Notes under the pieces: generated by a model | Told to the model about the DNA's origin: nothing | The model's input: the letters and a program-made list of their open reading frames with translations, nothing else | The model's database searches: none | Assembly: GCA_041480025.1 (NCBI GenBank) | Contig: JBGOZA010000001.1 | Coordinates: forward strand, 1 to 49,199 | From: Candidatus Bathyarchaeia archaeon | GTDB lineage: Archaea; Thermoproteota; Bathyarchaeia; RBG-16-48-13; GCA-020355125 | Length of the DNA stretch: 49,199 bases | Direction: 5' to 3' | Shown here: positions 45,940 to 46,272 of the stretch, piece by piece | How positions within the stretch are numbered: the stretch's first letter is position 1 | Layout: every line of letters begins with the position of its first letter | Made by a program: the position numbers and the translations under genes

Positions 45940-46147
45940 TACGCAGTATTTCAGGTCTTCATGCTGGATTATTTCATTTTCAAAGCATTTTTATGAATAA
46001 AGGACATAATAAGACCTTAAAAGTTAATTAGGGTTGTTTATACAGCCATATCGCAATAAAGAGCTTGGAACAAGCTTAATCGAGATAACACTAGGCTTAA
46101 GAGCTTGCTGTGAGCCCTAACGCAGAACCCAGAGGGAGAGATACAAA

Positions 46148-46237
46148 ATGAGCGATGAAGAAGATTTCGATGATGAAGACAGTGAAGACGACGAAGACGA
46201 TGAGGAAGACGAAGACGACGAAGACGATGCATGGTAA
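46148..46237 (+). CDS. hyper-acidic 29-aa micro-ORF (MSDEEDFDDEDSEDDEDDEEDEDDEDDAW)
   Basis: Hand-translated. GGGAGAG lies 8 nt upstream of the ATG and a strong T-tract follows within 20 nt of the stop. 23 of 29 residues are Asp/Glu. Coding status unproven. Confidence 0.4.
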   Translation: MSDEEDFDDEDSEDDEDDEEDEDDEDDAW

Positions 46238-46257
46238 GCCTAGACAGCTTACCTAAC

Positions 46258-46272
46258 TTTTTTCATTTTTTT
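46258..46272 (+). terminator. oligo-T terminator (TTTTTTCATTTTTTT)
   Basis: Two T runs located 21 nt after the micro-ORF stop and about 70 nt before the ABCE1 start. Confidence 0.4.

What the first reader, a model, noticed from the sequence alone, without database searches (positions are those of the whole stretch)
46037..46272. Stand-alone hyper-acidic 29-codon micro-ORF with its own terminator, upstream of ABCE1
ATG 46148 opens MSDEEDFDDEDSEDDEDDEEDEDDEDDAW-stop, with 23 of 29 residues Asp/Glu and a C-terminal Trp.

- GGGAGAG lies 8 nt upstream of the ATG.
- TATA-like TTTATAC sits at 46037-46043.
- A hairpin, AGCTTG-gaa-CAAGCT, lies in the putative leader.
- A strong oligo-T terminator (46258-46272) follows, 21 nt after the stop, so the unit is insulated from ABCE1.
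- The ORF contains a perfect 19-nt direct repeat, GAAGACGACGAAGACGATG (46184-46202 and 46211-46229, period 27 nt = 9 codons), indicating recent in-frame expansion.

The peptide is too small for standard annotation. Short poly-acidic peptides with aromatic anchors act elsewhere as DNA mimics or adaptors (DSS1/Sem1 in eukaryotes) or as carrier tails (the LysW C-terminus). No zinc ribbon or other fold is present, so this would be something different. The purine-rich transcript could instead be a non-coding RNA.
Basis: partly seen in the sequence, partly recalled or inferred. Interest (0 to 1): 0.6.

Follow-up and report, generated by a model that had tools for sequence, protein, structure and literature searches.

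The report
Conserved hyper-acidic Trp-ended archaeal micro-protein
The 29-codon acidic ORF is a real, separately expressed gene for a tiny, extremely negatively charged peptide ending in tryptophan, one member of an unannotated family found just upstream of the ribosome-recycling ATPase ABCE1 in many Bathyarchaeia; what it does is still unknown.

Summary
The ORF at 46148-46237 exists exactly as described. It is not a chance purine-rich tract.

**Family.** ABCE1-anchored searches of genomes and metagenomes found the same kind of ORF in 68 other Bathyarchaeia loci. These give 45 distinct peptides of 18-35 aa (E 57%, D 16%, W 13.5%), typically M-x-(EEEEW)4. All end in W-stop, and an SD-like motif precedes each assigned start.

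**Coding evidence.**
- Variation is concentrated at codon position 3 (entropy 0.43/0.57/1.33).
- Length changes are in frame.
- Where the promoter was deleted, the ORF decays.

**Expression signals.** ABCE1 keeps its own conserved promoter.

**Annotation status.** There is no Pfam, NCBIfam, PDB or Rfam match. The window peptide is absent from a 15-billion-protein collection.

**Function (unproven).**
- Best reading: a disordered polyanionic peptide with Trp anchors that docks in trans on a basic or hydrophobic surface. ABCE1 or the recycling machinery is the leading candidate, by analogy with the aP1 tail and the eIF3j N-terminus.
- Rival 1: an unrelated basic-protein partner, with the gene order simply inherited.
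- Rival 2: a cis sensor based on ribosome destabilisation by acidic nascent chains.

The parts
46096..46103 (+). Promoter-like box CTTAAGAG (TATA-like element), about 52 nt before the ATG. It predicts a transcription start near 46125-46130 and a 5' UTR of about 20 nt.
   Evidence: C-TTAA-AG is invariant in all 10 aligned window-clade loci, while the flanks diverge (alignment A5). Analogous boxes sit at the same distance in the other clades: aaaaATGTTTAAAg and agaCTTAAAat. Its function as a promoter is inferred, not shown. The motif is not enriched in the window overall.
46134..46140 (+). Shine-Dalgarno-like GGGAGAG, 7 nt before the ATG
   Evidence: A GGAGG-type motif lies within the 4-16 nt before the assigned start in all 69 loci; in the main clade it is the perfect GGAGGTGA. 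That start was itself picked as an in-frame start preceded by such a motif.
46148..46237 (+). Micro-ORF of 29 codons plus TAA: MSDEEDFDDEDSEDDEDDEEDEDDEDDAW (3.5 kDa, net charge about -23)
   Evidence: Homologous ORFs occur in 68 other loci. Codon-position entropy is 0.43/0.57/1.33, and 68% of pairwise differences fall at position 3.
46184..46229 (+). Two perfect 19-nt direct repeats (46184-46202 and 46211-46229, period 27 nt) within a 9-nt periodic tract; a source of in-frame length change
   Evidence: L085 carries a 6-nt insertion and L082 a point difference in the second copy.
46233..46253 (+). 7-bp hairpin GGTAAGC/GCTTACC that includes the last two bases of the Trp codon and the stop codon
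   Evidence: terminator-like site. z is about -2 in the L082 copy, which is identical to the window's, and in L085. Similar stems occur in L078-L081. The consensus support is weak: -1.5 kcal/mol, with 3 of 6 pairs covarying. It is clade-specific.
46258..46272 (+). Oligo-T tract (T6 c a T7): the likely archaeal termination signal of the micro-gene
   Evidence: 54 of 60 distinct loci have T4 or longer within 60 nt after the stop, and 44 have T5 or longer. The TTT block is invariant in A6. That oligo-T terminates archaeal transcription is established knowledge, not tested here.
46285..46292 (+). ATATTTCT: a conserved TATA-like box preceded by AAAAC, the separate promoter of ABCE1
   Evidence: The block (A)AAC..TATTT(C/T)T is conserved across the window clade (A6). 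In the main clade the ABCE1 box cATGTTTATAA persists in loci that have lost the micro-ORF.
46344..48152 (+). ABCE1 (GTG start, 602 aa): the constant downstream neighbour
   Evidence: Pfam Fer4_RLI plus 2x ABC_tran. It served as the anchor.

Best explanation
The ORF is a genuine, independently transcribed and translated micro-protein gene. It belongs to a previously unannotated family that is widespread in Bathyarchaeia.

**The product.** It is an intrinsically disordered polyanion (net charge -13 to -26) punctuated by Trp residues about every 5-6 positions. It nearly always ends in ...E-W-COO-. The window copy has kept only one internal Phe and the terminal Trp.

**Proposed mechanism.** I propose it acts in trans as a free acidic-aromatic docking peptide. 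The carboxylates would engage a basic surface, and the Trp side chains, above all the C-terminal one, would plug hydrophobic pockets. This mimics an acidic protein tail or a nucleic-acid backbone.

**Proposed target.** The most likely target is ABCE1 or the ABCE1-bound small ribosomal subunit. A specific candidate is the peptide-binding patch on NBD1 that binds the stalk protein aP1 C-terminal tail in archaea and the eIF3j N-terminus in eukaryotes. Binding there would tune ABCE1 recruitment or ATPase activity during ribosome recycling.

**Shown:** the gene is real, coding constraint acts on it, it has its own expression signals, it is restricted to Bathyarchaeia among the loci sampled, and it has been lost repeatedly.

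**Inferred:** action in trans, the docking mechanism, and the identity of the partner.
For: **It is a gene.**
- 69 loci carry an acidic ORF that ends in TGG-stop, and an SD-like motif precedes each assigned start.
- Variation shows 3-nt periodicity.
- Length variants are in frame.
- The ORF decays (loss of W, of the stop or of the ATG) in the branch where its promoter region was deleted.

**It is a separate unit.**
- A promoter-like box is conserved.
- A T tract follows the stop.
- ABCE1 has its own promoter, which is kept after loss of the micro-ORF.
- The micro-ORF stays intact in 5 loci where an ORF of about 85 aa that looks like a small membrane protein was inserted before ABCE1.

**It is disordered.**
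- AlphaFold2 predicts no secondary structure for a 33-aa member (mean pLDDT 58.7, pTM 0.13).
- The composition is E 57%, D 16%, W 13.5%.

**Selection acts on the peptide beyond its charge.**
- The terminal Trp is invariant among the 45 distinct peptides compiled, all of which were collected as W-stop ORFs, and E or D precedes it in 42. Two variants seen in three loci do not end in W.
- The third clade conserves DDWTDDEWGEDEGWGEEEEW.

**It is linked to ABCE1.**
- It lies directly upstream on the same strand in every locus. The gap is 93-140 nt in the loci tabulated and about 400 nt in the 5 loci with the inserted ORF.
- This includes 9 places found through the peptide rather than through ABCE1.
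- The adjacency survived replacement of the upstream neighbour, which is Asparaginase_2 in two clades and p266 in the window clade.

**There is precedent for short peptides regulating ABCE1.**
- The 18-residue aP1 tail binds NBD1 and activates the ATPase (PMC6125642).
- The eIF3j N-terminus occupies a similar patch (PMC7780240).
- The N-terminal acidic motif of eIF3j works through a Trp held in a hydrophobic pocket (PMC2824034).
- The aP1-pocket residues are present in the window ABCE1 (V, V, L, V, R).
Against: - There is no expression, proteomic or binding data; no RNA runs were found.
- The ABCE1 linkage may be inherited gene order. The whole block Pribosyltran-CGI121-THUMP-Sua5-Asparaginase_2-microORF-ABCE1-MoCF is syntenic.
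- In two rearranged lineages the micro-ORF disappeared together with the upstream region.
- ABCE1 shows no insertion, no pocket change and no convergent substitution that tracks presence or loss of the peptide.
- At least about 7 independent losses or decays within Bathyarchaeia show it is dispensable.
- The peptide lacks the L/GxxLF motif through which aP1 binds.
- N-terminal D/E runs abort translation in bacteria and eukaryotes (PMC9718836). The yield of full-length peptide is therefore uncertain.
Confidence: 0.38

Rival explanations
1. The peptide acts in trans but has nothing to do with ABCE1. It would be a general polyanionic mimic or chaperone for basic nucleic-acid-binding proteins (histones, Alba, ribosomal proteins, SSB/RPA), in the manner of DSS1/Sem1, the acidic-aromatic motifs of histone chaperones, or SSB and T7 gp2.5 tails. 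Its position next to ABCE1 would simply be inherited gene order.
For: - The gene-level evidence is the same as for the best explanation.
- The surrounding block of about 8 genes is syntenic as a whole.
- ABCE1 shows no co-evolutionary signal.
- The peptide is dispensable in many lineages.
- In the window clade the upstream neighbour is a very basic 266-aa protein with no Pfam match.
Against: - The micro-ORF stayed attached to ABCE1 when the upstream gene was exchanged (Asparaginase_2 versus p266).
- No copy was seen anywhere else in 163 loci or in the 49-kb window.
- No homology to DSS1 or any PDB chain was detected, even at E<=10.
Confidence: 0.3
2. The ORF is a cis-acting sensor. Its nascent chain is almost pure D/E from codon 3, the archetypal trigger of intrinsic ribosome destabilisation (IRD). 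Whether ribosomes finish or abort on it would report ribosome stability (Mg2+, polyamines, recycling capacity). That outcome would modulate termination at the T tract just behind the stop codon, and so read-through transcription into ABCE1. The peptide itself would be a by-product.
For: - The N-terminal D/E run is extreme.
- Such runs abort translation in bacteria and eukaryotes, in a Mg2+-dependent way (PMC9718836).
- In E. coli they are handled by ribosome-associated ABC ATPases of the ABCF family (PMC11162784).
- A translation-aborting small ORF regulates a Mg2+ transporter in Salmonella (PMC8092293, listed).
- The ORF sits on the same strand, with tight spacing to a ribosome-splitting factor (93-140 nt).
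- In the window clade a hairpin includes the stop codon and is followed by T runs.
Against: - ABCE1 has its own conserved promoter between the T tract and its start. That promoter is unchanged in lineages that lost the micro-ORF.
- In 5 loci another gene is inserted between them, yet the micro-ORF remains intact.
- The hairpin is not conserved across the family (mean z -0.36; weak consensus fold).
- The third clade lacks clear T runs.
- The invariant terminal Trp and the conserved Trp spacing are not predicted by IRD alone.
- IRD has not been shown in archaea. The P. furiosus proteome shows no N-terminal D/E avoidance (PMC9718836).
Confidence: 0.12
3. The peptide is an Fe-S maturation adaptor or targeting tag for ABCE1. 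Its C-terminal [D/E]-W-COO- would dock onto an Fe-S delivery factor, as the C-terminal Trp of Lto1 does for Rli1/ABCE1 in eukaryotes.
For: - In eukaryotes the only client-specific CIA adaptor, Yae1-Lto1, serves Rli1/ABCE1 and uses the C-terminal Trp of Lto1 (PMC4523923).
- The recognition signal is [LIM]-[DES]-[WF]-COO-, with conservation limited to the last two positions (PMC10245660).
- 42 of 45 distinct peptides end in [DE]-W.
- The gene lies next to ABCE1, whose N-terminal domain carries two [4Fe-4S] clusters.
Against: - The antepenultimate residue is E or D, not L, I or M.
- The window copy ends D-A-W, which fails the penultimate position.
- The signal is reported to be absent from archaeal homologues of CIA clients.
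- Archaea lack the Cia1-Cia2-Met18 targeting complex (established knowledge, not tested here).
- The peptide has no deca-GX3 motif or any evident ABCE1-binding module.
- The internal Trp repeats are not explained.
Confidence: 0.05
4. It is not a functional gene. It would be a slippage-generated purine-rich (GAN)n tract, or a non-coding RNA, that happens to be open.
For: - The DNA is low-complexity with 9-nt periodicity and perfect repeats.
- Assemblies tend to break inside it, and it cross-matches many unrelated acidic tracts.
- The exact window peptide has no entry in the protein collection, and no family library or PDB search matches the family.
Against: - The frame, the assigned start with its SD-like motif and the TGG-stop are kept in 69 loci whose ABCE1 is only 52-99% identical.
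- Variation is concentrated at the third codon position.
- The ORF decays only where the promoter was lost.
- There is no Rfam match, and the transcript is no more structured than shuffled sequence (z +0.38).
Confidence: 0.03

Closest known systems
eIF3j/Hcr1 N-terminal acidic (NTA) Trp motifs, an ABCE1/Rli1 accessory factor in eukaryotes
   Same: Both have short acidic stretches built around conserved Trp residues. In eIF3j the Trp is held in a hydrophobic pocket of the partner (PMC2824034). The eIF3j N-terminus contacts ABCE1 near the NBD1/NBD2 cleft (PMC7780240). Both have a functional or genomic association with ABCE1.
   Different: eIF3j is a much larger protein with a helical-bundle dimer domain (the 6-helix bundle in PMC7780240), and its NTA binds the eIF3b RRM, which archaea lack. 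No sequence homology was detected (Pfam none; PDB none at E<=10). The peptide here is 18-40 aa and stands alone.
Archaeal ribosomal stalk protein aP1 C-terminal tail
   Same: Both are flexible acidic segments that end in a hydrophobic or aromatic anchor. An isolated 18-mer of the aP1 tail binds ABCE1 NBD1 with a Kd of about 4 uM and activates its ATPase (PMC6125642). The pocket residues are conserved in the window ABCE1.
   Different: aP1 binds through L/GxxLF, which forms a short helix. The micro-protein has no such motif and ends in Trp. The window encodes a normal aP1 ending in ...GLGALFG (34789-35088).
DSS1/Sem1
   Same: Both are small, disordered, stand-alone acidic proteins with conserved Trp residues, and DSS1 serves as a versatile docking partner or DNA mimic (established knowledge).
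   Different: DSS1 is about 70-90 aa, is eukaryotic, has a C-terminal helix, and does not end in Trp. There is no Pfam PF05160 hit and no match to PDB chains. Its partners (proteasome lid, BRCA2, TREX-2) are absent from Bathyarchaeia (established knowledge).
CIA targeting-complex recognition signal [LIM]-[DES]-[WF]-COO- / Lto1 C-terminal Trp
   Same: Both have an obligatory C-terminal Trp preceded by an acidic residue. The eukaryotic adaptor that carries it is dedicated to ABCE1/Rli1 (PMC4523923 and PMC10245660).
   Different: The antepenultimate residue is acidic, not hydrophobic. The window copy ends D-A-W. The receptor complex is eukaryotic. The peptide has no deca-GX3 domain.
Acidic C-terminal tails of SSB proteins (bacterial SSB ...DDDIPF; T7 gp2.5 terminal Phe)
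   Same: In both, an acidic run plus a terminal aromatic residue with a free carboxylate acts as a portable docking element and DNA mimic (established knowledge, not tested here).
   Different: Those are tails of OB-fold proteins, not free peptides. They have no Trp periodicity.
IRD-type regulatory leader ORFs (for example Salmonella mgtL and other acidic or Pro-rich small ORFs)
   Same: Both are very short ORFs rich in D/E at the N-terminus, lying upstream of and on the same strand as a gene related to ribosome or cation physiology.
   Different: Here a conserved promoter and a T tract separate the ORF from ABCE1. The peptide sequence (Trp positions, terminal Trp) is itself conserved. The ORF persists when another gene is inserted between it and ABCE1.

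Membership tests
DSS1/Sem1 (Pfam PF05160) | Detectable sequence homology to the DSS1_SEM1 family | tested here: not met
   hmmscan of 4 family members against Pfam at E<=10 gave 0 families. Profile searches of all PDB chain sequences at E<=10 gave 0 hits.
DSS1/Sem1 (Pfam PF05160) | Small disordered acidic protein with conserved Trp residues | tested here: met
   Composition E 57%, D 16%, W 13.5%. AlphaFold2 gives no secondary structure and pLDDT 58.7. This is a resemblance in kind, not homology.
LysW / amino-group carrier protein | Zinc-ribbon (CxxC...CxxC) globular domain | tested here: not met
   None of the 45 distinct peptides contains Cys (composition). NCBIfam and Pfam give no hit.
LysW / amino-group carrier protein | C-terminal EDWGE ending in Glu, whose gamma-carboxyl carries the substrate, with adjacent lysX/argX ATP-grasp genes | tested here: not met
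   The peptides end in Trp, not Glu. The immediate neighbours are Asparaginase_2 or p266 and ABCE1. The only ATP-grasp gene seen lies about 6 kb away in L155.
eIF3j/Hcr1 | Homology to the eIF3j family and presence of its eIF3b-RRM partner | tested here: not met
   No Pfam hit and no PDB sequence hit. Archaea lack eIF3 (established knowledge).
eIF3j/Hcr1 | Acidic motifs centred on conserved Trp that act as hydrophobic anchors | not testable with these tools
   The sequence pattern is similar (for example SWDD, DDWTDDEW). Anchoring needs binding or structural data; no multimer prediction was available.
CIA targeting-complex recognition (TCR) signal | [LIM]-[DES]-[WF]-COO- at the extreme C-terminus | tested here: inconclusive
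   The last two positions are [DE]-W in 42 of 45 peptides. The antepenultimate residue is always D or E, not L, I or M. The window copy ends D-A-W. The motif definition is from PMC10245660.
CIA targeting-complex recognition (TCR) signal | Presence of the Cia1-Cia2-Met18 receptor complex | not tested
   Whole genomes were not available for scanning. The complex is regarded as eukaryotic (established knowledge; one search reports the signal absent from archaeal homologues).
Ribosomal stalk aP1/P1/P2 C-terminal tail | Conserved L/GxxLF motif at the C-terminus | tested here: not met
   No LF motif occurs in any peptide. The motif definition is from PMC6125642. A canonical aP1 is present in the window.
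Cis-regulatory leader ORF (attenuator or IRD sensor) | The ORF lies within the 5' leader of the regulated gene, with no independent promoter in between | tested here: not met
   Conserved TATA-like boxes lie between the T tract and ABCE1 and are retained after loss of the micro-ORF. A gene is inserted in between in 5 loci. Transcript ends were not measured.
Cis-regulatory leader ORF (attenuator or IRD sensor) | N-terminal D/E-rich nascent chain capable of destabilising the ribosome | tested here: met
   8 of the 10 residues after Met are D/E in the window copy. JIP3, the yeast ORF with the most D/E at this position (8 of 10), already aborts more than 60% of translation (PMC9718836). Whether IRD occurs in archaea is unknown.
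Known structured or small RNA families (Rfam 15) | Score at or above a family's gathering threshold | tested here: not met
   No hit in the whole window. Only two chance-level C/D-box matches were found (E about 0.5; 13-19 bits against a threshold of 50).

The most novel reading that the evidence does not exclude
The micro-protein is a dedicated peptide cofactor of archaeal ABCE1. It would be a free-standing counterpart of the acidic-Trp elements that eukaryotes use on ABCE1/Rli1: the eIF3j/Hcr1 N-terminal acidic Trp motif at the NBD1 patch, or the Lto1-type C-terminal Trp used for Fe-S delivery. If so, control of the ribosome-recycling ATPase by short acidic-aromatic peptides would exist outside eukaryotes. 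It would also give a minimal 22-30-residue tool for probing ABCE1 regulation.
Probability: 0.15. Interest if true: 0.85.

Novelty: new variant of a known kind. Interest (0 to 1): 0.62.

Why it matters
- **Size and annotation.** Most members of this family fall below the length at which gene callers report ORFs. That would explain why a gene conserved across much of an abundant sediment archaeal class carries no functional annotation. The exact window peptide is not in a 15-billion-protein collection.
- **Extremeness.** At about 75-80% Asp/Glu, with regularly spaced and terminal Trp, it is among the most extreme natural polyanionic gene products. It offers a compact test case for how such sequences are translated at all, given ribosome destabilisation by acidic nascent chains.
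- **If the ABCE1 link is functional.** It would be the first dedicated small-peptide partner of the universally conserved archaeal and eukaryotic recycling factor. It would make the role of the peptide-binding patch on NBD1 directly testable with a synthetic peptide.
- **If the ABCE1 link is not functional.** It is still a new stand-alone acidic-aromatic mimic in archaea, where no histone or ribosomal-protein chaperones of this type are known.

Tried and rejected
**Family and structure searches**
1. Pfam and NCBIfam scans of four members found nothing at E<=10.
2. Profile searches against all PDB sequences found nothing at E<=10.
3. The word-indexed homology search and the exhaustive HMM search of 1.84 billion representatives found only short proteins (<=79 aa) of the same family. 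All were unnamed or 'hypothetical', and the match always sat at the C-terminus. No fusion to a larger protein was found that could have revealed a partner.

**Expression data**
4. No RNA-seq runs hold the locus. DNA contigs from sediment metagenomes showed only one coding variant (D3E) and assembly breaks in the repeat.

**Co-evolution with ABCE1**
5. The aP1-pocket residues are conserved everywhere. No convergent substitutions follow the 9 loss groups. No clade-specific insertion exists. All three tests were uninformative.

**RNA-level readings**
6. A conserved RNA structure after the stop has only weak, clade-limited support.
7. Rfam in permissive mode gave chance-level hits, and the transcript fold has z +0.38.

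**Regulatory elements and other frames**
9. CTTAARAG is not enriched across the window, so the promoter call rests on comparative conservation only.
10. The antisense ORF (46038-46232) and the +1-frame K/T-rich ORF (46155-46256) were rejected. The variable positions fall at position 3 of the acidic frame.

**Other checks**
11. A viral-contig scan for (E4W)2-stop found none.
12. A literature search for the motif or for an ABCE1-linked acidic small protein found nothing relevant.
13. The first homology search attempt failed because the query was shorter than 40 aa.
14. A link to the upstream Asparaginase_2 (isoaspartyl peptidase) gene was considered. It was not pursued, because the window clade keeps the micro-ORF without that neighbour.
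Full report
**1. The observation.**

- ATG 46148 opens a 29-codon ORF, MSDEEDFDDEDSEDDEDDEEDEDDEDDAW, which ends at TAA 46235-46237.
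- GGGAGAG lies at 46134-46140, TTTATAC at 46037-46043, and the palindrome AGCTTGgaaCAAGCT at 46062-46076.
- Two T runs lie at 46258-46272.
- Two perfect 19-nt repeats lie at 46184-46202 and 46211-46229, inside a tract with 9-nt periodicity.
- The terminator scan adds a 7-bp hairpin at 46233-46253. It contains the last bases of the Trp codon and the stop codon, and it is followed by the T run.
- ABCE1 starts with GTG at 46344.

**2. It is a conserved gene, not a chance tract.**

I used the ABCE1 protein as an anchor to fetch 74 loci from species-representative genomes and 80 from JGI metagenome contigs.
- The window belongs to Bathyarchaeia. The nearest genome representative has only 63% ABCE1 identity, while metagenome contigs reach 99%, 92% and 78-79%.
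- A scan for short acidic ORFs found one directly upstream of ABCE1, on the same strand, in 68 of these loci.

Three sequence types correspond to three ABCE1 clades.
- The window clade includes MSEEEDWEEEEEEEEDWEEEEDWEEEEEW and MSDDGDNVNHNTSDDDENWDDDDDWSDEEDEEW. The closest relatives read MSEEEDFDD...DDAW (L082) and MSDEEDFDDENSEDDEDSDDEEDEDDEDDAW (L085, two extra codons).
- A large main clade has M-x-(x)-(EEEEW)x4.
- A third clade has MSEEDDSWDDGQEDDWTDDEWGEDEGWGEDEDW.

There are 45 distinct peptides of 18-35 aa.
- Composition is E 57%, D 16% and W 13.5%. There is no Cys and almost no basic residue.
- Net charge is -13 to -26.
- Aromatic residues are mostly 5-6 positions apart.
- All 45 end in W, and 42 end in [E/D]-W.
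- Two further variants do not end in W...EDEEM in L024 and L140, and ...DEEE in L027.

In all 69 loci a GGAGG-type motif precedes the assigned start, which was itself chosen as an in-frame start with such a motif just upstream. In the main clade it is the perfect GGAGGTGA.

Nucleotide variation over the last 17 codons has clear 3-nt periodicity.
- Column entropy is 0.43, 0.57 and 1.33 for codon positions 1, 2 and 3.
- 68% of pairwise differences fall at position 3.
- All length differences are in frame.

In one sub-branch the roughly 70-nt promoter region has been deleted. There the remnant (MIGEKKDSKEKEW) is visibly decaying: the ATG, the Trp or the stop codon is lost in different members.

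Together these results exclude a non-coding RNA, the antisense ORF and the +1-frame ORF. Rfam finds nothing, and the predicted transcript is no more structured than shuffled sequence (z +0.38).

**3. Expression signals.**

Within the window clade the only invariant upstream block is C-TTAA-AG. In the window this is CTTAAGAG at 46096-46103, about 52 nt before the ATG.
- The other clades have a TTTAAA-type box at the equivalent distance.
They are not conserved even in L085.
- I therefore reassign the promoter. This is an inference from conservation; the motif is not enriched in the window as a whole.

After the stop codon, 54 of 60 distinct loci have a run of four or more T within 60 nt, and 44 have T5 or longer. 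This fits archaeal oligo-T termination, which is established knowledge. The third clade mostly lacks such runs.

The hairpin over the stop codon recurs in the window clade. z is about -2 in the L082 copy (identical to the window's), L085 and L078, and -3.9 in L080. It has little consensus support.

Downstream of the T tract a second conserved block, AAAAC..TATTT(C/T)T, sits about 55 nt before ABCE1 (window 46285-46292). In the main clade the ABCE1 box cATGTTTATAA is retained unchanged in lineages that have lost the micro-ORF.

In five loci an ORF of about 85 aa that looks like a small membrane protein (by inspection of the sequence) is inserted between the micro-ORF and ABCE1, and the micro-ORF stays intact.

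**4. Distribution and linkage.**

On an ABCE1 tree the micro-ORF is present in three Bathyarchaeia clades.
- It is absent from two others (the B26-type clade and the L032/33/36 clade).
- It has been lost or has decayed in at least seven sub-branches of the main clade.
- It was not seen in about 25 loci from other archaea: Thermoplasmatota, Methanosarcinales, Thermococci, Archaeoglobi, Altiarchaeales, Asgard and Woesearchaeota. That outgroup sampling is thin.

Because all these loci were chosen through ABCE1, I ran an independent test.
- Five family members recovered by peptide similarity were traced to their contigs.
- All nine places show Asparaginase_2 - micro-ORF - ABCE1, inside a longer syntenic block: Pribosyltran, CGI-121, THUMP, Sua5, Asparaginase_2, micro-ORF, ABCE1, MoCF.
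- In the window clade a basic 266-aa protein of unknown family replaces THUMP/Sua5/Asparaginase_2, yet the micro-ORF still abuts ABCE1.

The linkage is therefore real, but its meaning is ambiguous. It survived one neighbour replacement. However, the whole region is slow to rearrange, and in two rearranged lineages the micro-ORF vanished together with the upstream DNA.

**5. What is known about it.**

Nothing is annotated.
- There is no Pfam or NCBIfam family and no PDB sequence match, even at E<=10.
- The exact window peptide is not in the 15-billion-protein collection.
- The 33-aa relatives are unnamed or 'hypothetical protein'.
- An exhaustive profile search of 1.84 billion representatives found 12 proteins, all <=79 aa, with the match at the C-terminus and no fusions.
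- Literature searches for the motif, or for an ABCE1-linked acidic small protein, found nothing.
- AlphaFold2 predicts no secondary structure for a 33-aa member (pLDDT 58.7, pTM 0.13).

**6. Mechanism.**

What selection preserves is extreme negative charge, Trp at roughly regular spacing, and a free C-terminal Trp preceded by an acidic residue. That is the signature of an acidic-aromatic short linear docking element. Here it is expressed as a free peptide rather than as the tail of a protein.

ABCE1 is a documented receptor for such short peptides.
- The last 18 residues of the stalk protein aP1 bind a hydrophobic pocket plus Arg on NBD1 (I170, V174, V219, A223, R227). They activate the ATPase with a Kd of about 4 uM (PMC6125642).
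- In yeast and human 43S complexes the N-terminus of eIF3j lies in a similar position. The authors call this 'a multivalent interaction patch' for regulating the ATPase (PMC7780240).
- The N-terminal acidic motif of eIF3j works through a conserved Trp held in a hydrophobic pocket (PMC2824034).
- The pocket residues are present in the window ABCE1 (V, V, L, V, R).

I therefore rank 'trans-acting acidic-Trp peptide that docks on ABCE1 or the recycling complex' first.

The support is circumstantial.
- ABCE1 shows no change that tracks presence or loss of the peptide.
- The window has a normal aP1 tail.
- The peptide lacks the L/GxxLF motif.

The equally simple alternative is a general mimic or chaperone for basic proteins, with the synteny merely inherited. 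It is nearly as likely.

A third reading deserves attention.
- N-terminal D/E runs cause intrinsic ribosome destabilisation and abortive translation in bacteria and eukaryotes (PMC9718836).
- In E. coli this is relieved by ribosome-associated ABCF ATPases (PMC11162784).
- An all-acidic ORF immediately upstream of the archaeal ribosome-splitting ABC ATPase could therefore be a cis sensor.
- The independent ABCE1 promoter, the inserted gene in five loci and the conservation of Trp argue against it, without excluding it.

Finally, the terminal [D/E]-W resembles the C-terminal Trp signal by which the eukaryotic Lto1 adaptor delivers Fe-S clusters specifically to ABCE1/Rli1 (PMC4523923 and PMC10245660). 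However, the antepenultimate position does not fit, the window copy ends D-A-W, and the receptor complex is eukaryotic.

**7. Verdict.**

Two regulatory assignments are corrected.

The family is new and unannotated. I file it as a new variant of a known kind, a free-standing acidic-aromatic docking or mimic peptide, with its function unresolved. Interest is moderate to high because of the family's breadth, its extremeness, and the testable link to ABCE1.

Noticed in passing
window 45139-45939 (+): The upstream neighbour is a very basic 266-aa protein with no Pfam family. Its start overlaps the stop of the CGI-121 gene. It occurs only in the window's Bathyarchaeia sub-clade (23 homologues, all 'hypothetical'). 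The AlphaFold2 model (pLDDT 79.6) shows two ferredoxin-like alpha/beta modules plus a three-helix bundle. The only fold matches are weak domain-level hits to Cas2/VapD-like proteins and PaaX (E>0.03).
   Followed up: partly
L001, L018, L022, L023, L041: about 60-200 nt upstream of ABCE1 (for example L018 3800-3900): Bathyarchaeia clades that lack the micro-ORF carry instead a conserved non-coding block, ...GTCACAGCCTRAGCTCCACGCCGTCGCCACACATCATCCCA. It lies between a divergently oriented gene and ABCE1. It has no Rfam match and no convincing ORF; it may be a small RNA or a regulatory element.
   Followed up: partly
L004, L010, L013, L056, L100: between the micro-ORF and ABCE1 (about 400-nt gap): An ORF of about 85 aa that looks like a small membrane protein (MITNKIKKRHLLLFSLLVIGLI...) has been inserted between the micro-ORF and ABCE1. 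It replaces the usual ABCE1 promoter box.
   Followed up: no
L016, L021, L025, L102, L105, L112, L114, L129, L152; also L131 and L028: These loci hold pseudogene-like remnants of the micro-ORF (MIGEKKDSKEKEW and variants with a lost ATG, Trp or stop). In the L016-type branch (the first nine loci) the promoter region has been deleted. They form a natural series of decay stages.
   Followed up: yes
window 34789-35088 (+): The ribosomal stalk protein aP1 is encoded in the same window. It has a canonical acidic linker and C-terminus, ...[15 protein letters not shown].
   Followed up: partly
window 46171-46238: In Logan contigs of sediment metagenomes the acidic repeat attracts many unrelated GAN-rich contigs, with local depth up to about 1100 against about 5-9 in the flanks. 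Assemblies of the cognate organism often break inside it. Such micro-ORFs will therefore often be lost or split in MAGs.
   Followed up: no
window 44552-48152 and loci L155-L163: ABCE1 sits in a conserved Bathyarchaeia block with tRNA-modification and translation genes (CGI-121/KEOPS, Sua5, THUMP) and an Asparaginase_2 (isoaspartyl peptidase-type) gene. The latter is the ancestral upstream neighbour of the micro-ORF in two of the three clades.
   Followed up: partly
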